Positions 5,250 to 61,049 of a DNA stretch of 64,000 nt are shown here, piece after piece. The translations under genes and the position numbers were made by a program. Location: the NCBI GenBank assembly GCA_038087875.1, contig CM075988.1, positions 15,006,001-15,070,000 on the forward strand, read 5' to 3'. Position 1 is the stretch's first letter. Every line of letters starts with the position of its first letter. The notes beneath the pieces were generated by a model. It searched no databases and was not told the origin of the DNA. It was given only the letters and a program-made list of their open reading frames with translations. The DNA comes from Malacoraja senta (lineage: Eukaryota).

Positions 5250-5414
5250 ACAGACGCAAAATGCTGGAGTAACTCAGTAGGACTGAAGAAGGGTCTCCAC
5301 CCAAAACGTCACCCATTTCTTCCGTCCAGAGATGCTGCCTGTCCCGCTGAGTTACTCCAGCTTTTTATGTCTATCTTCGGTGTAAACCAGCATCTGCAGT
5401 TCCTTCCTACACAC
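5250..5414 (+). mobile_element. Short Penelope-derived repeat (partial inverted arm plus full arm)
   Basis: ctgaagaagggtctc...aaacgtcacccatt...cagcatctgcagttccttcctacac. Confidence 0.8.
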
Positions 5415-5774
5415 TCCTATGGCCTATGTACAGGAAACTGAAGGCTGACACAAGAGTCTGCAGATGCTGGAATCACAAATAATTTGCTGTAAGAACTCAG
5501 CAGGTTGTGCAGCATCTGTGGATGGAAAGGAATGACCACTACTTAATTGGATTAATTAAAATAAATGAACAATGTACAAGAGCTAAGAAATTATAATAAA
5601 TCTTTATGAAACACCGATTAACCCTCAGATACAGCATTTTAGAGTCATTCGTTTTTGTGATAGGAGAAGAATTAGGTCATTCAGCCCATCAAGTCTACCC
5701 ACCATTCAATCATGGCTGATCTATTTCTCCCTCCTAACCCCATTCCCATGCCTTCTCCCATAACCCCTGACACA

Positions 5775-6775
5775 TCATACAGCACATAAATGGGCTCTTC
5801 AGCCTATCTTGTCCATGCCGCCAACTTGGCCTAAAGAGCCGATCCCATTTACCTGCAAATTGGTCCAAAAATCTCTAAACCATTTGTATCCATATATCTG
5901 CTCAAATGTCTTTTGAAGGTCATAATTGAATCCACGCCTAAAGCTTCTCTGGCAACTCATTCCAGATACGGGACTACGCTCTGCAGGAAAACGTTGCCCC
6001 TGAGGTCCCTCTTAAATATCTCCTCCCTCACCTTAAAACTCTAATTTTAGAATCCTCTACCCTAGGAATAGGACTATGAGCATTCATTTTATCAATGCCC
6101 CTCATGACCTTGCACACCTCAATAACATCACCCCTCAGCCTCCCATGCTCCAAAGAAAAATGCACCAGCCTATCCAACCTCTCCCTCAAGCTCGTAAGCC
6201 CAGGTAACATCCTTCCTATAGCTGAGCAAACAGAACTTCACACAGTGTGGTCTCACCAATGACGTAAAGCTGCATCATGAGTGCCAACTCAAAACTCTTC
6301 CCAATGAAGGCAAGCATGTCAAACGATTTCTTCACCACACTTTCCACGTGACTTGACCAATTTAGGGAAGCATGCACCTGTACTCCCAGATCTCTCTCTT
6401 TTGGTGCACCCTCCAGGGCTCCACCATTTACTGTGCAAGTCTTACCCTTGTATGCCACATCAAAATGCAACACCTCAAATATGTCTCAGTTAAATTCCAT
6501 TTCCCATTCCTTGGCCCATCTTCTCAACTGATCTAGATATTGTTGTAAACTTAGATAACATTCCTCATTGTCTATATTTATATAGCACCTCTTTTGGTGT
6601 AATCTGCAAATTTACTAACAATGTTAACTATATTGTCATCCATATTGTTAATTATACAACAGTGGACACAGCACTGACCCTGACAGCACGAGTCTCAGGC
6701 TTCCAATCGAAAAAAATATTCTCCATAACTACCCTTTGATGTCTTCCTCAAAGCCAATTTTGAATCCAATTGGTT
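5775..6775 (-). mobile_element. Old CR1 LINE fragment, continuing after the LTR at 7557-7640
   Basis: Degenerate RT C-terminal translations (ORFs 6028-6210, 6216-6473). Confidence 0.85.
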
Positions 6776-6779
6776 CCAT

Positions 6780-7552
6780 TGTAAATTGCCCGTTTCTAAG
6801 CTCCCCCCAGTCTAGTTTCAGTAAAAAACACTGAATCAAGCACTTGAAACAACTAATCTTTATTTTAACAAAAGTGCATTACAGTTCAACTAATGTACCT
6901 ATACCACCATGGGTTTGATCCTCATATCTGCCTGTTCAAGCCCTCTAGGCCTCGCTCAAACAGAGACACTCCAGAAAGTCACATGGTCCCAAGCGTTCTC
7001 CCAGAAGATCGACCCTGGACCTTGTGGTAATGGAGTTTTATATGTCCCGGGACCTCGAGGGGCCGAACCACATGGGGGTGGTCTCTTAATAATCCAATTA
7101 CAGATATCGATTAACCCCATACATAACAGACATTTCCCTAACTCAATAATACACAAGCTCAATATATTGTATTCAAACCGGACTTCTCAAGGAAGCCAAC
7201 TTAGAAACATTTACTCTGATATGCAAGAAACCCAGACAAGGCTCAATACTTCATCCAATCAACACTTGGCAAAGTAGAACTCTGCAACATTGTTTACAAT
7301 TGTTTACAAGGTGTATGTCTGGTTTGCAGCCATCCAATCCATTCTATGCATTTTGCACCTAATTGACAGGGTCTGCAGATGTTCTTATTCTTTTCTTGCA
7401 AATTGTATCCAGGCTCTAGACACACTGGCATCACTCCGCAGCTTGTCCCAGCTCTGCAGAGAGCAATTCCAAATTGACCAAATCTCCCAGCAGCCCTGAA
7501 GCTTTTACCCCATTTTGAAGTCCTAGCCTCTCCAATTTGGCCAGGATTAACA
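6780..7552 (-). mobile_element. Solo LTR (ERV or Gypsy-type), 773 bp
   Basis: TG...CA ends (TGTAAAT/ATTAACA); 4-bp TSD CCAT at 6776-6779 and 7553-7556; minus-strand TATAAAA (7036-7042) and AATAAA (6859-6864); cleanly interrupts a CR1. Confidence 0.85.
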
Positions 7553-7718
7553 CCATCACCTTGGATTCCATACCAGTTTACCATGTGGGACCATGTCAAA
7601 GCCACACTACATCTATTTATACAACATGCACTGCCTTGCCCTTAGTTTCCTGACACATTACTTGAGCAATGATTTTAAAGCCATGGAAAGGATAAAAGAG
7701 ATTGTCTATTGTCTATTT

Positions 7719-7864: not shown

Positions 7865-8172
7865 GTGAGAGGTGTATCTGAATGAAGCAGATCGGATTCA
7901 TGGAGGACTTAGAGAAGCTGGACTTTGTTCTTCTCAAAGCAAGAAATGTTTGGTACAGTTTTAATAGAGTCATTCACAACTCCAATGGATTTTGACAGAG
8001 TAAATATGTTAGAAGCATTACTGATCAAAAGACATCTTTCATTTTATTGGCCATAGGATCAAATATGAGTGGAGTAGTTTTATGCAATAGGTTAGTATTT
8101 GGAACACAATTTGGTAAAGCAGATTGAAAAAGATTCATTAGCAACTTTACTTTATAACCGTAAAGGTAAAGT

Positions 8173-8200
8173 CTGAAGAAGGATCTCGACCCGAAACGTC
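8173..8200 (+). ncRNA. Minimal hammerhead ribozyme-like core in a Penelope-derived repeat (8165-8302)
   Basis: CTGAAGA-A-GGAT CTCG ACCC-GAAAC-GTC; one stem II mismatch. Confidence 0.55.
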
Positions 8201-8739
8201 TCCCATTCCTTCTTTCCAGAGATGCTGCCTCACCCGCTGAGTTACACCAGCATTTTGTGTCTACCTTTGATTTTAACCAGCATCTGCAGTTCTTTCTTAC
8301 ACAAGATAATCCATAACTTTTTCATTAGTAATTTATCAAATTATCTACACCATAAAACAATGGGTTTAGTTCATAAAGTCAAACAATCGAAACTGACTTC
8401 AATTAATCCTGACACTTGGCCAAGAAGATGATTGGCCAAGTGTCTTCTGTTCTCATAGAACAGAATACAATCATCTTTTAATGTGCATGGGGGCTTCTGA
8501 AACAGTTGTATAAGGTTTGAATAAGATCAACCCTTGTAATCAGACAGGCACCATGCCAATCACATTTCAATGAAGCTAGGCGACTAAAATCCATCAAACC
8601 ACATTGCCCTACCCAAACTTAATGCCTGTTAACATCCCATCCCAGGAAGAGAACTTTATGCAACATTCAGTACTTCTCAAGATCAGTTGCATAAAAGTGA
8701 ATTGGAGTTTGCTTTAGGCCGATGGTCTAATGAGGATAA

Positions 8740-10904: not shown

Positions 10905-11650
10905 AACTATTTAATTGTGATATCTACTTAAAACGGTGCAATGAAATTCTTACTTGTAGTAGTATAACAGGTCTGTAAACACTGTACTCACAGATAACCA
11001 AATAAACAAAAGAAAGTTCAATAAATTTAAATAAAGCAACATTATTGCAAAACAAAAGCTCAATGCCCCTGGTGCAAACAAGACAGTTTGTCTTGAAGAT
11101 TGAGTGGATGCAAAGATGTTTCCACTTGAGAAGAGCCTAACCAGGAGGCATAAATATAAGAAAGGCCAATAGGGCAAATACTCTCTTCAGAAGTCTGAAA
11201 GAGTCTGAAGAAGGGTCTCAACCCAAAACATCACCCATTCCTTCTCTCCAGAGATGCTGCCTGTCCCGCTGAGTTATTCCAGCATTTTGTGTCTATCTTC
11301 GGTGTAAACCAGCATCTGCAGTTCCTTCCTACACAAGACAGTTTGTAGTTTAATAGATGTTTGTAGTGTGCAGGGTTGTTGGGGAGATGCTCTTCCTGAA
11401 CCTGGAGCTCATAGTTTTCCGACTCCTATACCATATTCCTGATAGCTGGAGTGAAATTAGAGCATGGCCCGAGTGGTGAGGTTCCTTGATGATACTGGTT
11501 ACCTTTATGTGGTTCCCTTCGATGGTAGGCAGGTTCAGTCCTCGTGATGGACTGGACAGTGTTCACCATTTTCTGAGCGTTTGAGTTCCCGAACCAGGGC
11601 GTGATGAAATAAGTTAATATACACCTGTAGTTCAAGAGAGTGATCGCCCT
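10905..11650 (-). mobile_element. Rex1/Babar LINE 3' fragment with a nested insertion (11092-11332)
   Basis: NYRCILTYFITPWFGNS-type translation; 3'UTR gtacttgcagcag..taacagg. Confidence 0.7.
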
Positions 11651-12329: not shown

Positions 12330-13900
12330 ACCCCTCATTTCAATAATCTTCTGATGTCCTTCTGCCTAAAGGAAAGCTCAATCATTCCAGTCCCCAAGGG
12401 AAATAAAGTGACTTGTGTCAATGACTACTGTTTACTTGTTCTCGCATGCCACATTTAAGTGCTTTAAAAGATTGGTATTGGCCCACATTTGAACCTTCAG
12501 GACATACTGCCCCCCCCCCCCCCACACACACTATTTGTATAGGGGAAAAATAGGGAGGATGCTATCTCTCTCGCACTGCATTCAGCCCTGATTGCCTTGA
12601 TAATAAAAACATAGATGTCAGGATGATATTCATTGAATACAGCTCAGCCTTCAACACCACAATACTGAATAAGCTCATCCTTAAACTTCTGAACCTTGGC
12701 GTTGGGGCCTCCATCTGCAACTGGCTTCTGGATTTTCTGACAGACAGATGGGTGATTAACATTTTTGTTTAGTTTAATTTTGAGATACAGTGCGGAAACG
12801 GGCCCTTCGGCCCACCGAGTCTGCGCCAACTATTGATCCCCGCACATTAACACTATCCTACACACACGAGGGACAATTTACACATCCACCAAGCCAATTA
12901 ACCTACAAACCTGTACATCTTCAGAGTGTGGGAGGAAACCGAAAATCTTGGAGAAAACCCACGTGGTCATGGGGAGAACGTACAACCTCCATACAAACCA
13001 CCCGGGATCGATCCCGGGTATCCGGCACTGCAAGCGCTGTAAAATTGGTAATAGGATTTTCACCACCCTGACCCGCAACACTGGTATCCTTCAGTGCTGA
13101 GTGCTATGTGCCTTACCTAACTCCCTGTACACCAATGAATGTGGGGCCAAGTATAACGCCACCTCGGTTTTTTATGTTCGCTGATGATACCACTGTTGGC
13201 AGTTAAACAAATGATGAGAGTGAGTATACAGTAGGAAGAAGATCCGGACCTTGAGTCATAGTGTCAGAACAACAACCTAGCCCTTAACGTCGGCAATATG
13301 AAAGAGTTGGTTATTGACCTAAGGAAGCAAGGGGGTGAGCACAACCCATCCTCATCAACAGAGCTGCAAATGATCAACAGGTTCAAATTCCTAGGCTTTC
13401 ATATCACCAGCAACCTAAGTAACTTCACACTGATGTGGTGATCAAGAAAGCGCATCAAGCTATTTACTTAGGTGTTTGAGATTAGGCATGTCCATGTGAA
13501 TTCTCTCGAACTTCTACAGATGAGCTATAGAAAGTATTCTGATGGGATGCATCTCCACCTGGTATGGCAATTGCTCTACTTTTAACAGGCTGAACCTGCA
13601 GATAGTGGTGAACTGCCTGTTCTGTCACAGGCTTGTTACTTCCTTCCATCCACTATTCTATCTTGGGGTTCATTGCATCAGGAGGCTAAAAGTATCGTAA
13701 GGTTGCCTATTACCCTGGCCATTCCATTTTCTCTCTGTGTAGGAAGGAACTGCAGATAGACACAAAATGCTGGAGTAACTCCAGGCAGACAGCATCTCTG
13801 GATAGAAGGAATGGGTGATGTTTCAGGTCGAGACCCTTCAGACTCTCTTCTGCCTTCTGCGAGATGATACAGGAGCTTGAAACCTCAGACATCCAAACTA
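12330..13900 (+). mobile_element. Degenerate Rex1/Babar LINE interrupted by a SINE and a Penelope-derived repeat
   Basis: IIPVPK..VTCVNDY and [11 protein letters not shown] motifs, an FADDTT-coding stretch and KELVIDL. Confidence 0.8.
12765..13040 (-). mobile_element. HE1/V-SINE-like tRNA-derived SINE
   Basis: Reverse complement of the 28646-28955 family, with (TAAAC)n tail. Confidence 0.85.
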
Positions 13901-15279: not shown

Positions 15280-15980
15280 AAGAAAATCAGAATGCTGAAA
15301 GGACTCAGTGGGTTGAGACCCTGCATTAGGGCAGGCAGGAAGCATGAAAGATTTTCAGTGTATAGTAGTGGGTAAGAGGTCGGGATAGAGGCTGGTAGGT
15401 GATCGGGAGAGCTAGATGGGGACGGGATGATAGGCAGATAGAACCAGGTGGGGGAGAGAGAGATTGGTTAGAGGCTGGTAGGTGATAGGCTTTACCTGAT
15501 GGGGAGGAGATGATGGACAGATAGTGAATAAGGGATGAATAAAGGTGAGATGAAAACTAGGTGGACAGGTGAGTGTGTCAGAGGAGAGCAACTGATATTG
15601 ACAAATTCAACAGTCCTACCATTACACTGTAAGATACCAAAGCAGAATATAGGATATTGTTCTTCACATTTGTGTTTGGCCTCTATGTAGTAGTGGACAA
15701 TGCTAAGGACAGACAGGTCAGTGGGGGAGTGGGAAGGAGGGTCAAAATAAAATGCAACTGGAAGCTTGAGATGGCTGTTAAAGAGAGAGCACAAATGCTT
15801 TGCAAAATAGACTCCCAGTCTACATTTAGTTTCAGCAATGTGGAGAAGGACACATCACAGAGATGCAAGTGAACCTCTGCCTCACCTGGAATTGACCCTT
15901 TAAGCTCCTCTAGGAGTTTCAGACCTGCAGCAGCATGATTTTTGTGCTTCCCATGAATTCCAAACTTGCAGATGTTCACA
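15280..15980 (-). mobile_element. Decayed Penelope-like element 3' part (GIY-YIG C-terminal remnant plus pLTR)
   Basis: ORF 15492-15794: PVAFYFDPPSHSPTDLSVLSIVHYYIEAKHKCEEQYPIF. Confidence 0.75.
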
Positions 15981-21411: not shown

Positions 21412-21610
21412 TGTAAGAAGGAACTGCAGATGTTGGTTTAAACTGAAGATAAACACAAAAAGCTGGAGCAACTCAGCAGGACAGGCAGCATCTCTGGAGA
21501 GAAGGAATGGATGACGGGTCGGGTCGGGTCTCGACCTAAAACGTCACCCTTTCCTTCTCTCCAGAGATGCTACCTGTCCCGCTGAGTTACTTCAGCTTTT
21601 TGTGTCTATT
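21412..21610. mobile_element. Fold-back Penelope-derived repeat
   Basis: Arm acacaaaaagctggagcaactcagc..ctctggagagaaggaa and its reverse complement. Confidence 0.85.
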
Positions 21611-22197: not shown

Positions 22198-22351
22198 GGG
22201 TAGACACAAAATGCTGGAGTAACTCAGCGGGACAGGCAGCATCTCTGAAGAGAAGGAATGGGTGACGTTTCGGGTCGAGAGCCTTCTTCAGACTCCAGCT
22301 TTTTGTGTTTGTCTTCAGTTTAAACCAGCACCTGCAGTTCTTTCCTACAAT
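22198..22351. mobile_element. Penelope-derived repeat with TSD AGGAATCTCTA and a minus-strand hammerhead core (22264-22291)
   Basis: TSD at 22187-22197 and 22352-22362. Confidence 0.85.
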
Positions 22352-23850: not shown

Positions 23851-24314
23851 CATGAGACTTTTTACTTTGATAAACATCTTCCCTGAAATCTGCAGTCGCA
23901 ATTCAACATCATAATGGGGGTAAAGACACCGTTCTTATCAAGATAAGGAAGCTGGAAATACAAATGCATCTGGCTGCTTCCATGCTAGAACTGGAGATAT
24001 TTCCAGCATTCTACGGTTTAATATTCTTGCTGCATAAAAAAGATCTCTACTCCAAGAGAGCTAATTATGTTGCATTCCATCATAAGAACATTTGGTGAAA
24101 AGAACATGTAGTTTGACAAGGATTGCAGGCATCCTCACAGTTCAGGGTGCCTTAGTAGCATGCATATTGTTCAAAGAACGCATTTGAACTCTAAAAGGAA
24201 TTCCCACCCACCATAGTATCCACAATGCAAAAATGAAAGGTAACCACAAAATAAACATTCCACACCAAACTGATAAATAGTGCCATATCATCAGATTATT
24301 CAACATATAAAGGT

Positions 24315-24449
24315 GTAGGAAGGGACTGCAAATGCTGGTTTAACCTGAAGATGGACACAAAATGCTGAAGTAACTCAGGGTGACAGGCAGCATCTCTGGA
24401 GAGAAGGAATGGGTGGCGTTTCGGGTCAAGACCCTTCTTCAGACTGAAG
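24315..24449 (-). mobile_element. Penelope-derived repeat with 12-bp TSD ACATATAAAGGT
   Basis: TSD at 24303-24314 and 24450-24461. Confidence 0.85.
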
Positions 24450-26169: not shown

Positions 26170-26395
26170 AAGACAAAATATATTGGAGTAACTCAGCGGG
26201 TGAGGCAGCATCCTGAAGATGGATAGGTGTCATTTCGGTTCAGGACCCTTTTTCAGACTGAAGAACAAACAGTTTGAAGAAGAGTCCCAACCTGAAACGT
26301 CACCATGTTCTCCAAAAATGCTGCCTTACCCGCTGAGTTACTCCAGCATATTGGGCCTTTCCTTAGAAAAATAGCATCTGCAGTTCCTTGTTTCC
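26170..26395. mobile_element. Fold-back Penelope-derived repeat
   Basis: Inverted arms around ttcagactgaagaacaaacagtttgaagaa. Confidence 0.8.
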
Positions 26396-27228: not shown

Positions 27229-27578
27229 CAAAAGGATACAAAGTGCTGGAGTCTGGCAGCATCTCTGGAGAACATGGGTAGATGATGTGTATGAAGGAAT
27301 TGCCAGATGGTGGTTTTAACCAAAGATAGACGCAAAATACTTGAGTAACTCAGAAGGAATGGGTGACGTTTCGGGTTGAGACCCTTCTTCAGCCTGACGT
27401 ATATGGGTGGGTGATGTGTCGGGTTGAGACCCTCTTCATACTTTGAGTCTAAGGACGGGTCTCGACCCGAAACATCGCCTTATCATACTCTCCTGAAATG
27501 CTGCCTGACCTGTTGAATTACTCCAGCACTTTGCATCCTTTTTGTGTATAAACCAGCATCTGCAGTTCCTTTCTACAT
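27229..27578. mobile_element. Nested Penelope-derived repeats with 14-bp TSD TTTCATTGAGTGCT; intact minus-strand hammerhead core at 27365-27392
   Basis: TSD at 27215-27228 and 27579-27592; CTGAAGA AGGGT CTCA ACCC GAAAC GTC on -. Confidence 0.85.
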
Positions 27579-34859: not shown

Positions 34860-35330
34860 CTCCTCCATACCAGAGTGATGCCACATGCTAACCAGAGGAA
34901 CAGTGGCCCATATTCTGTTTGGGTAACTTACAACCCAACGGTATGAACAATTAATTTTCCAATTTTGGGTAATTTCCTCTCTCTTCCCTGTGCACAACCA
35001 TTTCTCCTACTAGCCCATCCCTGTTCTCCAACCCCCATCCCCTTCCACCTATATCCCTTCCTCTGGCTTCACATTTCACTCCTCTTCTCTCTTTATCGTA
35101 CACCCTTTTGTCCTCTTTATAATTCTAACCTTTGCCCGCTCATCTGCCAATCCAACCCCCTTCACCTGTATCCATGTATCACTTGCCAGACTTTGTCCCG
35201 ATCCCACCTCTTTCCCAGCTTTCTCTCCCCTACCATAATCAGTCTCAGGAAGGATCCCGACATAAAATGTGGCTTATCCATGTTCTCCAGAGATGCTGCC
35301 TGTTACTGCAGCACATTGTGTTTTGATAAA
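34860..35330 (+). mobile_element. Penelope-like 3' remnant
   Basis: EEQWPIFCLGNLQPNGMN (GIY-YIG C-terminal end) followed by a pyrimidine tract and pLTR. Confidence 0.7.
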
Positions 35331-39716: not shown

Positions 39717-42110
39717 GTGTGTACAACAAGCATTCTGTAATGTTTTCTTCAGTCATGCATATGGTATACATGTATTTGTTCATGAGACTCTATCAGCAAT
39801 GATAGGATTTTAAGCCACACTTAAGAATCAACAAATCTCATGCTATATAATAAATATATATTGTAAGGTACATAATTGAAGTGGAGTTTTTAAAGGAAGG
39901 GTTGCTACTTTCAAATTTTAAAAAACATTTCCACTTTTTAAGTTGGAAATCAAAGAGTGTTAGAAATAATCCACTGAGTAAATTTTTCAACAGTTGTGAA
40001 GATAAGCGATAGATTATGATGTGTGACCTTTCACGATTACTGAAGACTGCGAGATGAGCAAGCATTTTAATGAGATTGATTAAACTAAAAATGACAGGGA
40101 GGGGGAGGGGCAGTGGTGAAGTTTATGCCTGAGGGAGTAACAAATGATCTGTAAGTTCTTTGTTCAAAGCCTTTGAAAGATATAAAAGTCATTTATTGAA
40201 TCATTAGAGCATTATCATAAGAATAGGTGGCTGCATAAATCATTCAGGTTGACAATTTACTGACCCAGCAAAACAAACACCAAAATAGAAGTGGTGTCAA
40301 GGAGAAAAGGTAAGTGTAAATGCAATAAAACTTGGAACACCAATATGTTAACAAGTCGCTGAGTTCTAATCGTGAAGCTCAGATCAAAGAATTATTGGAT
40401 CCAAGTTCAAATCCATTGCATCTTGAGATAAATCTCTCCCCATCTCACTCTACAGAACAGTTTGAATTCCATTTTGGACACAAAGTGCTTGAAGAACTCA
40501 GCATGTCAGGCAGCATCTCTGGAGAACATGCCTAGGTGATGTTATCAGATTGAGTCCTTTTTTCGGACTGAATGTAGGGTGAGGGGGTGGGGGGGGGGAG
40601 GAGGAAGGTGGAAAACCATGCAAAACCGTGCCCTTGGGGGTGGACAATTCAATATCAAGTTTATATCAATTCCAAGTCTATCGAACCTCTTCCTGTATCT
40701 GAAACCCTTTAATACAGGCAGCATTCCGGTAAACCTCTGCACCCTCTCCAAAGCCTTCACATCTTTCGTCTAATGGGGCGATCAGACCTGCACACAATAC
40801 TCCAAATGCGACCGAGCCAAAGTCCTATAGAGCTGCATCATGACATCATCATTTTGCATCTCTTGATTGGGAAACGTCCAAATCCCATTTTTCTTTTTAC
40901 GACTTTATTATAATAGATGGCTGTTGGCAACCCTGCATCAACCAATGAGCTGGAGACCGTTGGAGTCTTTTGTCTGGCCTCAGCAAATAATTGATTTTAA
41001 GCCAAAGCCAATTTGCATGGAAAATAATATCCATCGACGACAGAGAAATATAAACTCTATCAACTACTCACAAATAACAGCAAATTAGTTTTACTGAAAA
41101 ATGGCAGTGAATGAAGAATATATATTCAAATTAGATGAATAAAACAGATCTCAGACACTGACAGATATGTAATTACCAGACCTGACTGACAAATTATCCA
41201 ATCAGTCCCGCTCTGTCTTACAATACCCTTGTCACTATATCTTACCTTGGCAATAAAGAAATTGTAGCATCTTACAGACCTTTAATTTTGCTTCCAAAGT
41301 CATAATTTGTAGTATTCTATTTTCTGTTAAAACCACATTTTGCTCTTTTACTGCCTAATTTTTCCAAGTATATGTAACCAAAGGCTTTATGTCCCCTACA
41401 TATATGTCTTTCCATTCCTTTTTGGTAACATCAGTAGACATTACATCTTTGGTATATTTTATATGGTTTGATGTTAGATATTGTGTCATATTACCAGCCA
41501 TTTGCATAAGAAAACTTAGGTACCCAAATTGAATAAAATAAGCTTATAATTAATTGCCCAGTACAGTGGTAAATAAAACCCAGGGACTGAACAAAACACA
41601 AAACCAATAAATTGGCCAACAACTATGGACGCAGCAGATAAATTAGCACTTCAGGTGGTTATATTCTGATGAAGGGCTAATGTCTAGCTTATTTATCAAT
41701 TCTCCTCTCAGATGCTGTTTAAACAGTATTCTTGCCCTAATTCTATGACTGTATTTTGGACGACAGTAAAACAATTTATTTCTTCAGAATAATTTTCCAT
41801 TTTGATGGTAATCATCTATTGAACACAAAACATGAAAGTTAAAGTAATTATCAGAAACTAATGGCATTATACCAAACTATTATCATTGATATATCAATAA
41901 TAATAATTGTTTAATTCCTAACAAGAATTTCCTCCATGTCCACCAAGGCCACTCCTTGGTGACTTGATTCCACTAATCAGTCAAGAGGAAATTCTTGCCA
42001 GCAGTTTCTAAAGAAATATCAGAATAATGGATATAAATATGTGGTGACGCCTTTAAATATGCAGGTTATTTGCAGCATACTGTGAGGATGCTTATACTGT
42101 GAGGATGCTT

Positions 42111-44994: not shown

Positions 44995-45605
44995 TCTAGA
45001 GTAAAATGCAAAGTGCTCGAGTAACACAGCTGGTCAGGCAGCATCTGTAGAAGGAATGAATAGGCAACATTTCAGGTCGGGACCCTGCATCAGACTGATT
45101 TTGAAGAAGAGTCTCGACATGAAGCTTCATCACTCCATTCCTTCCACAGATGCTGCCTGACCCTCTGAGGTACGCCAGCACTTTGTTTTAGTCATCATTC
45201 CAATCACAATCACAATCACAATAATACTTTATTAGCCAAGTATGTTTTGCAACATACGAGGAATTTTATTTGCCAAGTCAGTCATTCAAATAAAAAGCAA
45301 CGGAACACACAAAATACATTTTAACATAAACATCCACCACAGTGACTCCTCCACATTCCTCACTGTGATGGAAGGCGAAAAAAAGTTCAACTTTCTTCCC
45401 TTCTATGCTTTCCCGTGGTCGGAGGCCTCGAGCCTTCCGTTGAAGGGGCAATCTTAATTCCTGTAGCCGGCGGTCGGGCCCTCCGCATTAGGGGAATCAG
45501 TTCCTGCATCGGGGGGATGTCAGCTCCCCCGCTCCTGCGATCGGACCCCAGGTCGGGGCTGGTCGAACCTCTGCGCCGTTGCTCCAGCATCTGCAGTTCC
45601 TTCTG
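44995..45605. mobile_element. Fold-back Penelope-derived repeat interrupted by the 45203-45582 insertion
   Basis: Inverted arms; terminal tccagcatctgcagttcc resumes at 45583. Confidence 0.75.
45203..45582 (-). mobile_element. GC-rich non-autonomous retroposon, (GATTGT)n tail, probable TSD TCCA
   Basis: (CAATCA)n on +; shares aacatccaccacag..cactgtg.tggaaggc with 46770-47639. Confidence 0.7.
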
Positions 45606-46769
45606 TCTCCTTAATAAGGATCTGCTGAGGTTGAGCTCCCTGTATCAGCCTGGGAGTAGCTCGCGTAGCCTTATTTTATGTAGGCCAGACGCAAGTTACA
45701 GAGTCACTGAGAGATATAGCATGGAAACAGACCTTTCAGCCCATTGAGTTCAACCTGACCATTCAGTACCCGGTTACACCAGTCATTCGCTAATCCCGTT
45801 TTATTCTTCCCACATTCCCCTAATCTCCCCTCAGATTCTACCACTTCCTTCTATGCTACAAAGGTAAATTGACCTACTAACCCACATATCTTTGGGGTGT
45901 AGGAGGAGACTAGAGCACCCAGAAGAAACCCAAGCGGTCACAGGGAGATCATGTAAACTCCACACAGAAAATGATTTTTAAAAAATGTGTCAGTGATCCT
46001 TCATATATTAACATTAGCCCTTAATGCATAATCAGGAATGCAAATTGCAGATTTCTCATGTGGAGAGCTCCTCATTTTCAATAAGATGGTAGTTTTCTTA
46101 GGCATTGTAAGGTGTAGCACACTGAGTTATGGTGCCACACGATCCAGTTTCTGGACAACGGTTTCTTCCTTTACTTGGTGGTCATGATTGCCTACTCTAG
46201 TTTACAGTAGAGAAATAGGCCAAGGGCACCCTGACCAGTCTACACCAGGCATAGACTCTCCAGAGCCTTTTCTATTCTATGTACTTCATCGCATCCTGTC
46301 AGCTTGACTCCTATTCCTCTCTCCGTAGTTTCCCTTAAGTGCATCTTTATTTATTAGCCTTACACATTTAATGTGATAGCAAGTTCCAGATCACATTAAA
46401 TGTGTAAGGCTAATAAATGTGTAAGTCACCGATATCTGGATAAAGTTTGTTCTAAATCTATCACTGAATTTGTTGGTGACTCAATTTATGTCCCTTAATT
46501 TCATACTTCCCTCAAGAAGCAACATTTTTTCTACGCCTAACCTTTCATACCTCTTCACAGTTTTAAAAAACCTCCCACAAGGCCAGATTTCAATCTTGCC
46601 TTTTCTAGAAAACAAATCCCAGATTTTGATGAGTGTTGGAGAAGATCTAACAATAGAAGCTAGTCCAGTGCAGTTTAATGGTGGTTTAATGATGCAGCAG
46701 TTAGTGCCGTTCCCACACAGCTTCAGCGATTCAAGTTCAATCCTGACCATGGAGTACCAACTGTGACTT

Positions 46770-51461: not shown

Positions 51462-51678
51462 AAAAACGACACATAGTGCTGGAGTAACTCACCAGGTCAG
51501 GCAGCATCTCTGGAGAACATGGATAGGTGACATCTTGGGTCAGGAAACTTCTTCAAAGAGTGCTTTGACCCGAAACGTCACCTATCCATGTTCTCCAGAG
51601 ATGCTGCCTGACCTGCTGAGTTACTCCAGCACTTTGTGTCCTTTTGTGTAAACCAGCATCTGCAGTTCCTTATTTCTA
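51462..51678. mobile_element. Fold-back Penelope-derived repeat just upstream of the last GRIK4 exon
   Basis: Arm gtgctggagtaactca..ctctggagaacatggataggtgac and its reverse complement. Confidence 0.85.
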
Positions 51679-52110: not shown

Positions 52111-53141
52111 GACAATGGCAAAAAAGACCTCCAACACAAAGACCACTGTGCTCGGGTGAGCTCTGCCCACTGCGAGAGGGGAAATATCCTCTGCGGTGGG
52201 GGAATGCAGAGTGCAAGCCTTGGGCAGCGGGTTCTGAAATAATGAATGTTGTTCATTTTACACAAAACGACATTAATAATGCACTGTGGATCTTCTTTCT
52301 TCAATCAGGGCAGCGGCAGAATTATTTCTGTATATTCTAATATGAAACAAAGTGCCAAATCTCACATTCCCATTCTCAGAGCAGCAAGGTCTTGAACCTC
52401 AAGCTATGCACTTCTGTAAACCTCTCCCTAGGCCTGGAAGGGGGGCCATGATCAACATAAATCAATTAAGCGTCACTGAACAAGTGGCAGAGACACAAAA
52501 CCATTGATATACAGTTTCTACAATGGCGCACAATTCTTGGTTATGTGAAACCTCCTTCGCATAAGCCCAGGGTGACTGGATGGGGAGAAAGAGAACAAAT
52601 GCTATATAAATCCCCCATCTCTGTTTCATCATCCTGTGTGGTAGAAATTGGACTCGCACACTAACCCAGATTGAAATTTGTGAAATGATTCTATGCAATT
52701 CCTGTGTTACAAAGATCGGTACATTAAACTTTAATTAAGGATCTTCACCTTCTGCCTTTTTCAGAAAAAAATCATTGCTCTCTCTTGTTCTACCTTCTGT
52801 GCTCTCCCTGTCATTGTAAAGAAATGTATAGCTGAAAGATTTCTTAATATAACATAAACTTGTTGGAATGGACATTTCCATCTGTCAGAATCAATCTTCG
52901 TGTTTAATGTCACCATTTAAAGAGGAGAAAGTGCTGATTCATGCAAATCCTGATTGAAAGATCATTTACAGGTCTTCCAAACACACCCAGTGTCTCTTAG
53001 GGTTGAAGTTGGTATTGGTGTTATAATTTTAAAAACCTAAAACTTCCTGAGTTCATTAGATTTTAAATATATATTATTTCAAGCTATTGCCCTTTAATTG
53101 TGGTGTTTCTTATTATAAAAACTGATTCTAAATTATATTAG

Positions 53142-53361
53142 AAGGTAGATAAAAATGCTGGAGAAACTCAGCGGGTGAGGCAGCATCTATGGAGCGAAGG
53201 AAAAGGTGATGTTTCGGGTCGAGACCCTTCTTCAGAAGTCTAAAGAAGGGTCTCGACCCGAAACGTCACCTATTCCTTCGCTCCATAGATGCTGCCTCAC
53301 CCGCTGAGTTTCTCCAGCATTTTTATCTACCTTCGATTTTTCCAGCATCTGCGGTTCTCTC
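53142..53361. mobile_element. Near-perfect fold-back Penelope-derived element with 14-bp TSD
   Basis: ~95-bp inverted arms; TSD CTAAATTATATTAG (53128-53141) / CTAAATCATATTAG (53362-53375). Confidence 0.9.
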
Positions 53362-55419
53362 CTAAATCATATTAGGGCATTTTTGCATCCTTTACTGTAA
53401 CAGATTTTACTCATTTTGGAACGGTGAGATGGGAAGGAAAGACAATGCTATCCTCCATCTCAAAGATTTGTGTTGTTATCAGGATGTGCGATTTTCCTCT
53501 CTATAAATATCAGGGAGGTTCTGATTTATACTACGTGTAGTCTCAAGTTAAATTGGAAGTAGACATTGGCAGGATTTATATTTCAGCACAAAATTAATTC
53601 ATCAAAATGTTCAACATTATGAGCTGGCAACCTATATCCTTGCCCTTCACTAAGATAATCGTTCACAATGTATTGCTTGTTTAAGGTAAGATGTGATGAA
53701 TAATGCACAAAGCTTCATGTGTAGCGTACCCTATTGATCATTACCAACTGCAGCAGTATTCTCTTCCTCAGTCATACTGTCTCTTACTTTATTTAGGCAA
53801 GAGTAAAAAATTAAAAATGTGATCAAAGTTACTTCAATTCCATGCTATATTCTTAAGAAATGCAGCAAGTTTATTTCAGTCTGGATATTTTAAATGTGAC
53901 CAACCACTCATACTGTGTGAGACACATGGACTGAGAGCCAACTAAACTTGTCAAGGGTTACATTCTGATTGTTGATTCAGATCTCGGTCAAAGTCATTGC
54001 TATCTAACACCTGGATTATGCCAGAATGTCTCGCTCTCACATGAAATCATAAGAGGGAAGGGGTTGGGGATTACACCCACACCCAACACTAAGATCAGTG
54101 GACCTGGCACAACCGTCTGACTTCATACATTGTAAACTGTTTTTGTAAATGTTGACACCTAGAGTAAAATTTAGCTACCCCAACAATTCACACACATCTA
54201 TGACTGGAGTAGGTAATTCCAAGACTCAAGAGAGAGTCAAAAAGTGTTTTAATTGTCATTTGTACCGACAATAGAAGAATTAAATTCTTATTTGCAGCAG
54301 CATGACAGGCCAGTGATCACAATACATATTATATGTTACAACTAATCTACTCTATAGCAGAGCTTGAAAAGAAGGTTTTGTCCCTATCCTGTCATTGCAA
54401 ACTGTAGTTCTAACAAAAAAAGAAACTAGACTAAAAAAATATCTTTCACAATCTTGGGTTACTTCAACTAACCAATTTAATATTTTTGACTTTGACTTTG
54501 ACTCCCTTATGAGGAAATCTGGCATCTAGTTTTTACACAGTAAGATTCCACATTTGACCCTAAGGTAATAAAAATTGTGATTTTTTTTGTGATTTTGGTT
54601 AAAGGTTAAGTTTGTGTCTTAATGTTCAGTTGGATGAGTAGGGGTGCTTCAATTCAACGCTCACCCAAAATATAACTGTTCCAAAAGTGCATCACTTGAT
54701 CTCTGTTTGAGGGTTGAGCCCCCAATGTTCTGAATCAAGATGGAAAGTTCACCCACTGACAAGAATAATGCCCCATCTGCACAAGTAGCAAGTACTTAAA
54801 TTAGCAATTCTGTTTTCTGATTTCGGGACAGGAAATTATCTAGAAGTAATCTGGATTAACATTTCAATTATGCTTCTATGTCACGGTTTTTAAAAACTTG
54901 GCGGATTGCAAATAGGTGCCAGGCCACAAAATGGGTATAATTCCATGTGAAAATCACTTGTGATGATTCCTGAATCAGTACATTAGATGGTTACATTGTT
55001 ATGATCTATAGCAATTATAAAAATACTGACATGAAAACAAGCTAGGCAGAAAATAACTCTAAGTGCTGGCATAATTCAGCGAGTCAGGCAGCATGTCTGG
55101 AGAACATGGATAAGTGACGTTTCAGGGCAGGACCCTTCTTCAGAAGCTATGGCAGGTTCTTCTTCGGCACTCCCATGGAGTCCCATGATTTCTGCCACAC
55201 TGGACTCTGTACGTTCTGATATGGCTGATGAGGCCAATGTGAGATCCGAAATACTGCCACAAGGACAGAAAGAGGCACTTGTTGACCTATAAGCTGGGTA
55301 TCTGGGAGACGGTGTGTTCCTTCCACCATTTACATTGGGCTGGTCTGTGATTCCAACTTGGGACTCAAGATTCTCAAAGCCATCCCCAGTTTTCCTTCTC
55401 CATTTTGAACAGTTCTAGA

Positions 55420-56439: not shown

Positions 56440-57540
56440 TTCTGACTTTTCTCTTAATTTTCTGGATCTCTCTGTCTCCATCTCGGGAACAAAACTATCC
56501 ATTGACATTTATATAAACCCACTGCCTCACACGCTATCTAGACTACACCTCTCCCCATTGAGTCTCTTGCAGGAATGACATCCAAGAATGACAGTTTCTT
56601 TGCCTTCACCGCATTTGCCTCAATATGAGGGTTTCTATTCCAAGACATCTAAAATGTCACATTTCATGAAATTTGTTTCCCATCTCACATTTCCTCAATT
56701 TCCTGGACTTCTGCTTCACACCTCCATCCTCCAATCAGAACAGAGATAGTTCCCCTACTCTGCACCGTTCACCCTGGTAGCTCCACATCCAGCAGATAAT
56801 CCTTTATCATTTCTGCCAGCTACAACAGGCTCCCACTACTAGCCACATCTATTCTTCCCACTCCTTCCGCCTTCCATGACCACTCTCTCTGTGACTGCTT
56901 GGACTTCTCATCACTCTCCACCCACTCCTCTCTGACCCCTGACAAATTCCCCTGCAACTGTTCCTACTCCTACCTCATCGCCATTCAAGAACCCAAGCAG
57001 TCCTTTGCACACTTCTCCTCCAACGCCATCTACTGCATTCAGTGGTCATGTTGTAGCTTCCTCTACACCCGTGACTCCCAGTGCAGACTAGATTACCATT
57101 TCCTAGAGCACCTGCATTCTGTCTGCAATGTTTGTCCTGAGCCCCAATGCCATTTTGATTCTCCTTCCTATTCCCACATCAACTTGACCAGACTAGACAT
57201 TCTCCACTGTTACAATGATGCCCAAAAGCAAACTAGAAGATCACTTCATTCCTCAAGAGAAAATAGCACCAGAGTGTAGTGACGTTTTGCCAGCAGCTGG
57301 GCAGGGTAATTTTAAATATGTACAATTTAAACTTTTAATGCTAAGAAAAGCAGAATAGATCATCATAACGTACAGACTCTTGGGCCAATTAGATGAAATA
57401 GTGATTACAATCCAGCTATCATCTACTACCTACTGTCTCACCCCTCCCCCTCTCCTCTTTATACTGGCTATCTTCCCCCTCCACTCTCAGTCCTGATGCA
57501 GGGTTTCGATCTGAATCATTACCATTTTGTTTGGCCTCTT
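56440..57540 (+). mobile_element. Decayed Penelope-like element (RT C-terminus, GIY-YIG endonuclease, pLTR)
   Basis: YLDYTSPH-coding stretch near 56530; ORF 56899-57279 SSNAIYCIQWSCCSFLYTRDSQCRLDYHFLEHL resembles PLE GIY-YIG; ends in a degenerate CTGATG..GAA core. Confidence 0.8.
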
Positions 57541-58106
57541 GATCTCACAAAAACAATTAAATACAACTGTTGCAATGAATGAGCTGATACATGTTCACCT
57601 TATCCCTGCAATGAATTCGGGAGGATTTTGCAAAAATGGGTCTGTTGGTAACTCTGTAATGGTTTGAAGTGGGTGCTGTTGATAGCCCATGTGTCAGAAG
57701 TGTACAGGAGAGTGCTAGGTGAACCATTTGCTTTGTGTCAGAGGGAGTGTTGTTGGACTGATGATAGGAAATGTTATGGTTTATGTTTGTTTTCAGGATG
57801 AGGTTTTATTTTGTGGACGTGAAGCATAAGGTCCATTCTTTCATACACCTCAGTGAATGAGATGACAATGACTTGGAGCTTGTAATCATAACCAAGAGTC
57901 ATTAGATTATAGCAGCTTCGTAACTGAAATTGGACTCTGTAGGAAGGAACTGCAAATGCTGGTTTAAACCGAAGATAGACACAAAATGTTGGAGTAACTC
58001 AGTGGGACAGGCAGCATTCATGGAGGGAATGGGTGATGTTTCGAGTCGAGACCCTTCTGATGTTCCATCTGTAGTGGAAGTAATAAAGATTAAACAGTTA
58101 CCCAAG

Positions 58107-58296
58107 GTACACAAAAATGCTGGAGAAACTCAGCGGGTGCAGCAGCATCTATGGAGCGAAGGAAATAGGCAACGTTTCGGGCCGAAACCCTTCTTCAGAC
58201 TCCATTTAGCTCCATAGATGCTGCTGCACCCGCTGAGTTTCTCCAGCATTTTGGTGTACCTTCGATTTTCCAGCATCTGCAGTACCTTCTTTAACA
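58107..58296. mobile_element. Fold-back Penelope-derived element, 15-bp TSD AAACAGTTACCCAAG
   Basis: TSD at 58092-58106 and 58297-58311. Confidence 0.88.
58171..58198 (-). ncRNA. Minimal hammerhead ribozyme-like core
   Basis: CTGAAGA-A-GGGT TTCG GCCC-GAAAC-GTT on -. Confidence 0.6.
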
Positions 58297-59399
58297 AAAC
58301 AGTTACCCAAGTTTCCTTTCGGCTAGCTCCACTCTGGTAAAAAGCTTATTGGAGATAAGGTGTAACACTATGGTGAAAAAGATTGAGGTGGCTGACTTGA
58401 GTGCAGACTTACTTGACACCTGTTTGCACAGGAATTGGGTATGTTGAGAGCCCATTAAGATCACAGCTTTCTAGCTATCATGAAGCAGATGCAAAATGTC
58501 AGCAAGTTTTGTATGGGGATTTAAGAATCTCTCACAGTTAAAGGTTGTTGTGTGGTCAAAAGAAACCCCTGCATTTCTCTTGAAGTTGATATGTTGTGAA
58601 GTTTATGTACATTTTACTTTTTAGATGGACAGGATCCACACTGCAATTCAGGGAGCAGCTTTTTAGCCTCTGGGAGGAGATAGTTGAGGAAAATGACTTG
58701 CACTTACTTTATTATTGTGGCAGTATTTGCAGCAGAGCCAGATTGAAAATAATATTTATTGTTATTCAGCATGACACCTATTCTCTTGTACTGTTCTGTA
58801 AATGAGTCGATAACTTGACAGAACGGATATCAAGAGTTATGGGGAAAAGGCAGGAAAAAGGGATCAGGAGGCAGAGATCAGCCATGATTGAATGGCAGAG
58901 TGGACCTGATGGGCCGAATGGCATAATTCTACTCCTATAACTTGTGAACAATGATTCGTATCCCAATATGGGCATATTCAAGTATTACCTGCTTACTCCA
59001 TTTTAATGAGTGAGGTAACTTTTGTTTCAGAGTGGAGACAATTAGGTATGTATGTGCATGTGAATGTGTGTGCTCACTAATGTTAAATGGACATAGGCTA
59101 CTGTAAGATAGTTTGCAAAGTTGAATCTCATTCAATTAAAGGCACAGTGAGAGTATAAAGTTGGCTAAGCAGAGTACTGTACAGGTAAATAACCATTTTG
59201 AAAGGATGGAGGTATACAGTAGAGTTCTTCGATGTTGGGTCACTGCTGCTTTTGATATATATTACTGTAAACAAAGGTCATTAAATTGGATTTTTACATT
59301 TTCATCATATCTGTCCCACCCCGCCTCTTTTGTTCCTGAATTCTTTATTGGTTTTGTTATGTTTAGGTTTTTCCATTACAAAGCAAACCGAGCCAATTT

Positions 59400-59990
59400 C
59401 TCTTCATAGGGACACAAGAAACTAGAAATGCTAGAATCTTAAATGAAAAACAAAATACTGGAGGGATTCAGCAAGTAAGACAGCATCAGTGGATGGCAAT
59501 GAACAAATGATGTTTTGAGTTGGGGGTAGACAAAAGTGCTGGACAAACTCAGCGGGTGCGGCAGCATCTATGGAGCAAAGGAAATAGGCAACGTTTCGGG
59601 CCGAAACCCTTCTTCAGACTGATGTAGGGTGGGGGAGGGGGGAAGAAGAAAGGAAGAGGAGGAGCCAGAGGGCTGAGGGAGAACTGAGAAGGGGAGGAAC
59701 AATAAGGGCTATTGGAAATTGGAGGTCAATGTTCATGCCGCTGGGGTATAAACTGCCCAAGCGAAATATGAGGTACTGCTCCTCCAATTTCCGGTGGTGC
59801 TCATTTTGGCCATGGAGGAGGCCCAGGACAGAAAGGTCAGATTCGGAATGGGAGGGGGAGTTGAAGTGCTGAGCCTGGCTGAAACGATCGCCAAGCCTAG
59901 CTAGATTAGCTGACATCTAGAGCAGCGGATGCAATAGATGAGGTTGGAGGAGGTGCAGGTGAACCTCTGTCTGAGTTGGAGCCCTTCTTG
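59400..59990 (-). mobile_element. Penelope-like element 3' portion (GIY-YIG remnant, pLTR with hammerhead core at 59590-59617)
   Basis: ORF 59614-59916: RLGDRF..HFNSPSHSESDLSVLGLLHGQNEHHRKLEEQYLIFRLGSL. Confidence 0.85.
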
Positions 59991-60288
59991 CATGTGATGA
60001 TAAGTTTGGAGGTGGTATTGAACGCCAAGTTATAGTTGTGTTGTGATGGACAACAGCCTGACATACTGTACGTGTTCTTATTTTCCAAGTGGTCAGAACC
60101 TTTGCAGGTTTGGAGTACTTCAGGGTAGGGAGCATGATCCATTGTGCACTCTAGTATGATTAAGTTACTTGTAGGTAGAGATACCTTCAAATTACACCAT
60201 TACAGTTAAAGAATTTAAATTTGAATAATTAAATAAAACTGGAATAGAAAAGGCTTGTTACAAAAATTAAAATTGGTTTACTAATATC

Positions 60289-60416
60289 CGTCAAGAGAAG
60301 GGTCCCGATCTGGAATGTCACCGATACATGTCCTCCAGAGATGCTGCCTGGCCCGCTGAGTTACTCCAGCACTTTGTGTTTTATTCAAGATTCCAGCGTC
60401 TGCAGTTCCTTGTATC
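60289..60416 (+). mobile_element. Penelope-derived repeat, 12-bp TSD TTTACTAATATC
   Basis: TSD at 60277-60288 and 60417-60428. Confidence 0.8.
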
Positions 60417-61049
60417 TTTACTAATATCTTTCATGGAAGCAAATCTGCCACCCTTATACGAATTGGTCCATCTTGTGTATACAGACCTACGAACATGATT
60501 GGGTGTTAAATGTTGCATGAATTCAGGGGTAATTAATGATGGACATTAACGGCCAGTATTGTCAGCAACATCTACCAAACAAAATAAATTGCAAAATTTG
60601 TTTGTGGATGTCGCTTATTGCTAGGTCAGATTCATGCTAGTTTACTTTGCAAGGTCAATCTGTGAGGAATATCATTGATTCCTCCTTGGCCTGCTGAGAT
60701 CATCCAGCACCAGGTATTTTGATCGAAAGTTATTGTTTTGGGTTTTTTGTTTGTTTGGAAATTACCCTAAAACGGAGCCTCGAAACTGAGGTTCGTTGCA
60801 TCCTTACACGTCCCCCAGTTAGTTTAGGGTTATCTTCTTCTAACAATCTAAAAATCGTTAGCAGTCTCTTGTGTGTCCACTATCATTGATCTGTTTACTA
60901 CAAATTAGTGTAATGGGCATCACTCCCTGTGAGATGCAACCCATTACCGTGGGTGTGTCTTTCTGCCGGTTCCAGGGATCAGTCTGTGCACAATGCAACT
61001 GGTTATGGAGATCGGGATGGGGGTTATACCAATCGCCACAATGAATTGG

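What the first reader, a model, noticed from the sequence alone, without database searches (positions are those of the whole stretch)
5250..60428. Dense family of ~130-350 bp non-coding Penelope-derived elements carrying minimal hammerhead ribozyme cores
Seen in sequence: about 20 copies share CTGAAGA-A-[GGGT-NNNN-ACCC]-GAAAC-GTH, which is the hammerhead catalytic core (CUGANGA ... GAAA ... NUH). Stem III is reduced to the palindrome ACGT. Stem II varies while staying paired between subfamilies (GGGT-CTCG-ACCC at 53208-53235 versus GGGT-TTCG-GCCC with a UUCG loop at 58171 and 59590). The same sequence ends the GIY-YIG-coding PLE remnant at 59400-59990, which ties it to Penelope pLTRs. Established: PLEs carry minimal type I hammerheads with a palindromic stem III thought to work as dimers. 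Inference: these are a high-copy non-autonomous, ribozyme-bearing PLE family mobilised in trans. Caveat: stem I pairs at only about 2 bp, so activity is not shown.
Basis: partly seen in the sequence, partly recalled or inferred. Interest (0 to 1): 0.72.

Follow-up and report, generated by a model that had tools for sequence, protein, structure and literature searches.

The report
Penelope retrotransposon ends with minimal hammerheads
These repeats are the short, mostly decayed ends of a Penelope-type jumping gene in what looks like a skate or ray genome, and they carry the minimal hammerhead-ribozyme motif already known from such elements, so this is a new example of a known thing.

Summary
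The repeat is real. There are 32 arms (about 25 insertions, 5% of the window), in introns of and downstream of a GRIK4-like gene. Each arm is the 3' pseudo-LTR end of a GIY-YIG Penelope-like element (PLE). It starts with a minimal type I hammerhead motif (core, extra base, 4-bp helix II, ACGU helix III, 2-bp helix I) and ends either about 95 nt on or after a further ~35-nt tail. Nine insertions are head-to-head pairs with one tailed arm, and many have 8-17 bp target duplications. All of these are published PLE traits. Only 2 of 18 fully covered cores are intact. The core decays like the flank, shows no covariation here, and is predicted to misfold or be buried in hairpins. No arm clearly starts at the cleavage site. 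Most short arms start at AGT, 3 nt before the core, and public contigs show the same boundary. There are no tandem arrays, so these are not retrozymes. Best reading: truncated or inverted insertion products of PLE RNA, probably stopping at a transcript 5' end. An independent non-autonomous family is possible but not shown. New member of a known kind.

The parts
59525..59975 (-). 5'-truncated PLE: C-terminal GIY-YIG endonuclease remnant (broken by stops and frameshifts), pyrimidine-rich pLTR, intact minimal hammerhead (C3 at 59617, cleavage base at 59590), short 3' end; 8-bp target duplication TGAGTTGG
   Evidence: tblastn with skate protein P0002: E 4e-29, 63-65% identity; homologues; duplication; loose ends at 59525, 59619 and 59969-71 in public contigs
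59415..59523 (-). older degenerate arm with tail; target of the 59525-59975 insertion
58104..58292 (.). head-to-head pair: full arm with intact hammerhead (C3 at 58198, -), partner arm truncated and tailed; 15-bp perfect duplication
53141..53366 (.). head-to-head pair, arms 97% complementary over 96 nt; - arm has ACAT, + arm has G5A and the tail; 14-bp duplication with 1 mismatch
51466..51678 (.). head-to-head pair, right arm tailed; 17-bp duplication with 2 mismatches
45003..45606 (.). older head-to-head pair (CTGATGCA variant core); tail displaced to 45583-45604 by a later ~390-bp insertion
27230..27578 (.). head-to-head pair with a perfect 14-bp duplication, interrupted by a younger single tailed copy at 27289-27402 (-) with its own 17-bp duplication (2 mismatches)
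26170..26395 (.). head-to-head pair, right arm tailed; 12-bp duplication with 2 mismatches
24314..24451 (-). single tailed arm with a short inverted stub; perfect 12-bp duplication; U16.1 changed to C
22198..22350 (.). head-to-head pair: full short arm (-) joined to the 3' half plus tail (+); 14-bp duplication with 1 mismatch
21412..21609 (.). head-to-head pair joined inside helix II; left arm tailed
13736..13846 (-). single tailed arm with internal deletions
11202..11335 (+). single tailed arm, G12A
8170..8303 (+). single tailed arm; core bases intact, helix II and helix I mismatched
5252..5413 (.). head-to-head pair: short inverted 3' piece plus full tailed arm, G12A
5450..5531 (-). older degenerate tailed arm without core
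32796..33392 (+). longer PLE end: pyrimidine-rich pLTR, core with helix II deleted (~33123), later insertion (~33150-33310), then the rest of the arm with tail; left limit approximate
34868..35324 (+). longer PLE end: endonuclease C-terminus, pyrimidine-rich pLTR, degenerate core
40477..40620 (-). arm with about 45 nt of upstream pyrimidine-rich pLTR, degenerate core
55055..55147 (-). single short arm; core bases intact, helix II weakened
57938..58060 (-). single tailed arm, first core bases missing
60292..60417 (+). single tailed arm, degenerate core; perfect 12-bp duplication
56676..57527 (+). old PLE remnant: endonuclease-like sequence and a CTGATGCA-type core at ~57493
   Evidence: tblastn E 1e-12 to 3e-12
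15282..15900 (-). old PLE remnant: endonuclease-like sequence and a degenerate end
   Evidence: tblastn E 5e-18

Best explanation
The repeats are 3' pLTR ends of GIY-YIG Penelope-like retrotransposons, inserted by the PLE's own endonuclease and reverse transcriptase. Shown: shared ends with endonuclease-coding remnants, target duplications, two alternative 3' ends, head-to-head pairs with one tailed arm. Inferred steps: (1) The endonuclease makes staggered nicks, giving the 8-17 bp duplication. (2) Reverse transcription starts at one of two internal sites about 95 and 130 nt downstream of the hammerhead, giving the short end and the tail. (3) It copies RNA that is uncleaved at the hammerhead site and usually stops at AGT just before the core, most likely a transcript 5' end (TCAGTC is initiator-like). 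That would also explain why helix I is only 2 bp. (4) Priming from both target ends, or fold-back at the self-complementary TCAG-T-CTGA, gives the head-to-head pairs. The hammerhead motif is kept in the source elements, where it probably cleaves weakly, as a dimer or with protein help. The scattered copies are neutral fossils and nearly all inactive.
For: Link to PLE: the same end closes five longer copies preceded by an 84-97% pyrimidine tract, three of them with endonuclease-like sequence upstream. The closest named proteins are Leucoraja erinacea LOC products at 63-64% identity. Target duplications: 8 of 20 insertions score >=9 against 2 of 128 mismatched-flank controls, p=1e-6. All 9 inverted pairs have exactly one tailed arm, read by eye, as described for PLEs; two RT start sites bracket the tail in the anole PLE. 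5' ends: 24 of 32 arms begin within model positions 1-9, and 12 of 19 short arms inspected have AGT directly before C3 with unrelated sequence further upstream. Public contigs show heterogeneous loose ends at 59619-59622 (X3 289 contigs; X18 36 and 29) and at 59525 (all four runs). No arm begins cleanly at the cleavage site, in line with uncleaved RNA being the insertion substrate in vitro. Junctions differ between pairs. Hammerhead class: it matches the published min-HHR consensus, and in 48 distinct helix I contexts from metagenome loci with the same core, 25 pair at >=3 bp against a shuffle mean of 7.5, maximum 15. Fossil state: 2 of 18 cores intact, decay equal to flank, 11 arms on + and 12 on - inside the host gene span.
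Against: No full-length element with RT lies in the window and no genome is held, so cis versus trans origin cannot be decided. The commonest subfamily (CACCCATTCC type) has no clearly long copy here; one copy (27392) has about 20 nt of upstream similarity. The transcript start is inferred from boundaries and from a recalled initiator consensus, and is not mapped. The same CAG after a pyrimidine tract also looks like a splice acceptor, as in D. virilis. One arm (58174 group) starts ambiguously near positions 33-41, close to the cleavage site. Insertion limits for the duplication test were set by hand, and 10 of 20 insertions gave no convincing duplication. Only the two youngest pairs have arms clearly closer to each other than to other loci.
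Confidence: 0.62

Rival explanations
1. The ~130-nt unit is an independent non-autonomous element (a mini-PLE). It is transcribed from an internal promoter or by read-through and copied in trans by the PLE protein.
For: Sharp 5' and 3' boundaries. Most copies are short. The commonest subfamily has no clearly long copy in the window. D. virilis Penelope has an internal promoter, pLTRs suffice for mobilisation in trans in a rotifer, and a 2026 preprint derives non-autonomous hammerhead elements from pLTRs.
Against: Junctions of pairs vary. Long copies carry the same ends in at least three variant groups. Endonuclease-coding sequence is itself covered by very many contigs. There is no tandem array and no tRNA-like head.
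Confidence: 0.25
2. The 5' boundary marks no RNA end. It arises at DNA level, where cDNA folds back or anneals at the TCAG-T-CTGA, helix II and ACGT micro-palindromes (self-priming, possibly on an antisense template). The hammerhead motif then acts mainly as a structural hot spot.
For: Several junctions sit on these palindromes (24314, 26170, 21412). Self-priming was proposed for palindromic PLE junctions. In metagenome loci, head-to-head joints also cluster 13-50 nt upstream of the core.
Against: Single arms with target duplications and no inverted partner start at the same place (60292). Many junctions are blunt or carry a few extra bases.
Confidence: 0.1
3. They are non-LTR retrozyme monomers (ribozyme-cut circles) or MITE-like DNA transposons.
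For: Size of 130-350 bp, a hammerhead motif, and long inverted repeats.
Against: No tandem arrays of the unit. Ends do not fall at the cleavage site. The hammerhead is minimal, not canonical (separates the two). Arms are asymmetric and junctions variable. Duplications vary in length and sequence.
Confidence: 0.03

Closest known systems
[quoted passage not shown]
   Same: Core with an extra base before G10.1, G10.1-C11.1 pair, palindromic 15.2-16.2, pyrimidine-rich upstream flank, thousands of scattered single copies ascribed to truncated PLEs, and pairs on opposite strands. The Acropora digitifera Neptune motif has the same layout. A 2-bp helix I is listed for D. virilis, Culex and Oikopleura.
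   Different: No cartilaginous fish appears in the Table S1 or Fig S3 lists I saw. Helix II (4 bp) and helix I (2 bp) are at the short end of the range.
Inverted and solo pLTRs with an optional 30-40 bp tail in endonuclease-containing PLEs (PMC3846280, PMC8557442)
   Same: Head-to-head pLTRs, tail on one arm, target duplications, palindromes at the junction, strong 5' truncation.
   Different: Here most insertions are only the last ~95-130 nt, with a very sharp start 3 nt before the core. Duplications run 8-17 bp, against 8-10 bp in the rotifer examples.
Anole Poseidon element PAc (Frangieh et al. 2024, PMC11167929)
   Same: Two internal RT start sites about 110 nt or more downstream of the hammerhead bracket the tail. 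Both strands are cut and extended. Uncleaved RNA is the substrate, and the hammerhead cleaves only with protein.
   Different: Another PLE family. No ORF continuing through the hammerhead is evident in the window copies. Nothing was tested biochemically here.
Non-LTR retrozymes (PMC7229834; bioRxiv 10.64898/2026.07.22.740005)
   Same: Small non-coding hammerhead-bearing repeats related to pLTRs. Reported in one chondrichthyan, mean consensus 363 bp.
   Different: Retrozymes are defined by head-to-tail tandem units and ribozyme-processed circles. The window copies are single or head-to-head and are not bounded by the cleavage site.

Membership tests
PLE minimal type I hammerhead | CUGANGA(H) ... 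GAAA-N-palindrome-NUH core with G10.1-C11.1 and paired helix II | tested here: met
   Majority sequence fits. 7 of 18 fully covered arms keep all 11 invariant bases.
PLE minimal type I hammerhead | Helix I closing the core | tested here: inconclusive
   Only 2 bp; 80.6% of cells paired; predicted pairing probability <=0.03. Published precedents with 2 bp exist.
PLE minimal type I hammerhead | Covariation of the helices | tested here: not met
   Within 18 window arms: one double-sided change, score reached by 119 of 500 shuffles. Met only for other families with the same core in metagenome loci.
PLE minimal type I hammerhead | Located in the pLTR downstream of the GIY-YIG ORF end | tested here: met
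   Copies at 59617, 35244 and 57493 follow endonuclease-like sequence on the same strand.
PLE minimal type I hammerhead | Self-cleavage after NUH (dimer or protein-assisted) | not testable with these tools
   Needs a bench assay. Only contigs, no raw RNA reads, were available.
Rfam hammerhead families | Match to a covariance model | tested here: not met
   No hammerhead family among 15 matches at E<=10. Expected for a motif lacking helix III (inference).
Endonuclease-containing PLE | C-terminal GIY-YIG endonuclease | tested here: met
   63-65% identity to skate proteins that read IYCIRC..C..LYIGETKR. ESM Atlas: nearest named cluster GIY-YIG on 15% of members, score 0.90, a lead only. Pfam found nothing on the short fragments.
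Endonuclease-containing PLE | Telomerase-like RT in the same ORF; clade (Neptune or other) by RT phylogeny | not tested
   No PLE RT was identified in the window. Neptune is suggested only by a cysteine-rich linker in homologues P0002-P0007.
Endonuclease-containing PLE | Direct or inverted pLTR, optional 30-40 bp tail, target duplication | tested here: met
   9 inverted pairs each with one tail; duplications in 8 of 20 (score >=9) against 2 of 128 controls.
Non-LTR retrozyme | Head-to-tail tandem units each with a hammerhead | tested here: not met
   No such array among 12 TRF rows.
Non-LTR retrozyme | Circular or monomeric RNA bounded by the cleavage site | not testable with these tools
   No RNA reads. 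DNA copies do not start at the cleavage site.
Independent non-autonomous PLE family | Own subfamily lineage without long counterparts; own transcription | tested here: inconclusive
   The window is too small. The commonest subfamily has at most one partly extended copy.
tRNA-derived SINE | tRNA-like head | tested here: not met
   ARAGORN found 0 genes in the window; degenerate heads could be missed.

The most novel reading that the evidence does not exclude
In skates and rays the PLE transcript starts at an initiator 3 nt before the hammerhead core, so promoter, hammerhead and both RT start sites fit into about 130 nt. This unit propagates by itself as a minimal non-autonomous 'mini-PLE' and fills several percent of the genome, with the hammerhead fold kept as a protein-binding or promoter element more than as a nuclease. 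The huge number of junctions would then give a direct genomic read-out of how PLE reverse transcription starts, stops and makes inverted ends.
Probability: 0.25. Interest if true: 0.55.

Novelty: new member of a known kind. Interest (0 to 1): 0.27.

Why it matters
The ribozyme motif and the architecture are published PLE features, so the finding is not surprising. What it adds is a dense natural data set in a lineage for which my searches found no dedicated description (Dfam and Repbase not available). The copies start just before the core, not at the cleavage site, and pairs carry one tail. That fits the 2024 in-vitro result that uncleaved RNA is the substrate, and it makes the still-open PLE insertion mechanism testable by counting junctions genome-wide. 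The long intronic hairpins are possible double-stranded RNA substrates in a neuronal gene (inference, untested).

Tried and rejected
Rfam scan: no hammerhead hit; the miRNA-type hits fall on hairpins and are below gathering scores. Whole genome not held, so no genome-wide consensus, copy number or subfamily tree. Core pattern in viral contigs: 0 matches. Pfam on the short endonuclease fragments: nothing. PDB sequence search: one chance-level hit. RNAalifold on 18 arms predicted only a 5-bp downstream helix without double-sided changes, not the hammerhead. Expression: no RNA holder listed; X18 is only guessed to be RNA, and contigs cannot show ends or level, so nothing is concluded. Summed contig depth is not a copy number and was not used as one. 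Its variant table hid 63 rows, so genome-wide core conservation could not be read. Strand bias in the host gene as a sign of harmful cleavage: none (11 vs 12 arms). Splice-acceptor reading of the boundary: not favoured because short copies share no upstream exon-like sequence, but not excluded. A G just before AGT in 5 arms, as a trace of cap copying: too few, and explainable by microhomology. Lunse et al. (PMC5785218) is not held. Earlier scan findings: none returned.


Full report
Setting. The window holds exons of a kainate receptor gene on the + strand: the exon at 39488-39712 matches GRIK4 best (E 3e-45) and GRIK5 next, and Pfam finds receptor domains in two other exons. The closest named relatives of the transposon fragment are from Leucoraja erinacea, so the host is probably a skate or ray (inference). 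No genome is held for the window.

The observation. An HMM from 9 window copies finds 32 arms at E<1e-5; the best reversed-window hit has E 3.4. The arms cover 5.1% of the window and belong, by my count, to about 23 insertions, with 2 further old remnants seen by protein similarity. The majority sequence begins AGT-CTGAAGA-A-GGGT-CTCG-ACCC-GAAA-CG-TC-AC. This matches the published minimal hammerhead consensus of metazoan PLEs: core, extra base, G10.1-C11.1, palindromic helix III, NUH. Rfam gives no hammerhead hit among 15 matches at E<=10.

State of the cores. Of 18 arms with a fully covered core, 7 keep all 11 invariant bases. Only 58198 and 59617 also keep helix II, ACGT and both helix I pairs. 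With four junction-confounded arms left out of the core count, core positions match the majority base in 208 of 229 cells (90.8%). The figure is 1244 of 1352 (92.0%) at the 46 downstream positions that do not distinguish subfamilies (p=0.52), and 1514 of 1778 (85.2%) at all downstream positions (p=0.02). So the core stays fixed between subfamilies, but each copy decays at the background rate. Pair counting on 18 arms shows one double-sided change, no better than shuffles. Folding of 7 copies at three lengths gives helix I a probability of at most 0.03, and helix II mostly below 0.3 except for 53235 in short contexts. An active-like dimer scores -8.7 to -10.2 kcal/mol against -21.6 to -25.0 for the best two-strand fold. 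Six inverted loci fold into hairpins of -90 to -189 kcal/mol that bury the core. These models ignore the non-canonical core and any protein help.

Is the motif class a true hammerhead? None resembles the window family downstream. Helix I was not in the pattern, yet 25 of 48 distinct contexts pair at 3 bp or more, against 7.5 plus or minus 2.2 in 2,000 shuffles (maximum 15), with several pair types. The base at the cleavage position is G in only 3 of 127. Skate-type endonuclease sequence hits 35 of the 121 loci, and lies upstream on the same strand in 32. Two loci (L040, L071) have the same GT/AC 2-bp helix I as the window. In 19 of 107 motif rows with enough flank there is an inverted partner; the long ones join 13-50 nt upstream of the core. 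The motif is therefore a PLE hammerhead by class. Activity of this family is not shown.

Link to the PLE. The remnant at about 59525-59975 (-) encodes a broken GIY-YIG C-terminus, 63-65% identical to a skate protein. Similar remnants lie at 15597-15900, 34868-34966 and 56676-57231. Five copies extend upstream into an 84-97% pyrimidine tract ending in TCAGTC. The 59525 element sits inside an older copy and is flanked by an 8-bp duplication.

Anatomy of insertions. Arms end either about 95 nt after the start or after a further ~35-nt tail. Nine insertions are head-to-head pairs, each with exactly one tailed arm, read by eye; in one, the tail is displaced by a later insertion. Target duplications scoring 9 or more flank 8 of 20 insertions tested, against 2 of 128 mismatched controls (p=1e-6). 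Two more have perfect 8-mers, and 10 give none; limits were set by hand. Junctions differ between pairs. At the 5' side, 24 of 32 arms begin within model positions 1-9. Twelve of 19 short arms inspected have AGT directly before C3, with unrelated sequence beyond. None begins cleanly at the cleavage site; one is ambiguous. There are no tandem arrays and no tRNA genes.

Beyond the window. On the 721-base stretch 59500-60220, at 80% likeness, 45,901, 116,415, 68,097 and 6,041 contigs were laid from four public runs: X1, the best-holder organism and possibly the source sample, and three runs of two other organisms. The repeat and the endonuclease part are thus both highly repeated; the depths are not copy numbers. 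Heterogeneous loose ends pile up at 59525 in all four runs and at 59619-59622 in the rows shown for X3 and X18. Both boundaries are therefore general, not peculiar to this window.

Mechanism. Shown: PLE origin, two 3' ends, duplications, one tail per pair, a sharp 5' end before the core, neutral decay. From the literature: inverted pLTRs with palindromic junctions, tails and solo pLTRs are typical of PLEs. In the anole PLE, both target strands are cut and extended, RT starts at two internal sites that bracket the tail, uncleaved RNA is the main substrate, and the hammerhead cleaves only with protein. Inferred: the short copies arise when RT, started about 95 or 130 nt downstream of the core, reaches an RNA 5' end at AGT; priming from both ends or fold-back makes the pairs. 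TCAGTC resembling an initiator is recalled knowledge, not a tool result. In D. virilis an intron ends about 5 nt before C3 (intron 416-491, C3 at 496, if the two papers' coordinates are comparable), so a splice acceptor is the alternative reading. I put 0.62 on by-products of PLE RNA, 0.25 on an independent non-autonomous unit, 0.10 on a purely DNA-level boundary, and 0.03 on retrozyme or MITE.

Comparison and novelty. It works like other PLE pLTR ends with minimal hammerheads and meets the testable PLE features. It fails the tandem criterion for retrozymes. Five searches aimed at cartilaginous fish listed no paper describing this family by title or abstract start; I did not open most of the listed papers, and Dfam and Repbase could not be checked, so it may already be catalogued. 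Papers seen: PMC4209133, main text parts 1-2 of 4 and supplement file 2 parts 1-2 of 3, file 1 not searchable; bioRxiv 10.64898/2026.07.22.740005, parts 1-3 of 5, supplements unseen and possibly listing the chondrichthyan families; PMC11167929, parts 1-2 of 4; passages only of PMC6155905, PMC8557442, PMC3846280, PMC6765202, PMC7229834 and PMC2377424. Lunse et al. was seen only as a reference title.

Verdict. A real and correctly spotted feature, and a new member of a known kind. The non-autonomous claim is open, and catalytic activity in these copies is unlikely. Interest 0.27.

Noticed in passing
window 2217-52110 (+): Host gene is a kainate receptor, best match GRIK4, with exons seen near 2217-2370, 39238-39414, 39488-39712 and 51760-52110.
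   Followed up: partly
window 31026-31347 and 29190-29497: Two related MITE-like elements with 65-70 nt inverted arms starting GGCCCTGTCCCACT or GGGCCTGTCCCACT next to TTAA; they look like non-autonomous DNA transposons (Kolobok- or piggyBac-like, recalled).
   Followed up: no
window 36847-38967 (-) and 42086-43261 (-): Long RT-coding open frames (706 and 391 aa), CR1/L2-like LINEs by appearance; RVT_1 E 2e-32 for the first.
   Followed up: partly
window 63040-63891 (-) and 35917-36303 (-): RT plus ALKBH8_N-like domain, probably Rex1/Babar-type LINE fragments (family name recalled); Pfam run on the first only.
   Followed up: partly
window 45093 (-), 57493 (+), ~15330 (-): An older variant reads CTGATGCA-GGGT, i.e. 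C at the A9 position or an extra base between G8 and A9; a possible core variant or a dead subfamily.
   Followed up: no
positions 51-84 and 108-116 of the repeat unit, e.g. window 11252-11317: The best-conserved block is ATGCTGC downstream of the hammerhead (226 of 232 cells at positions 53-60). It can pair with either of two CAGCAT repeats, one before the short end and one in the tail; a candidate RT-binding stem-loop.
   Followed up: partly
window 46349-46418: Perfect 29-nt inverted repeat with a 12-nt spacer, AT-rich, unrelated to the family.
   Followed up: no
window 45190-45580 and 46880-47570: A GC-rich repeat-like insertion splits the 45003 element, and a similar GC-rich stretch lies near 47 kb; not classified.
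   Followed up: no
L039, L045, L083, L101, L110, L071: Head-to-head hammerhead-bearing pLTR pairs in metagenome contigs, probably from animal hosts, joined just upstream of the core as in the window.
   Followed up: partly
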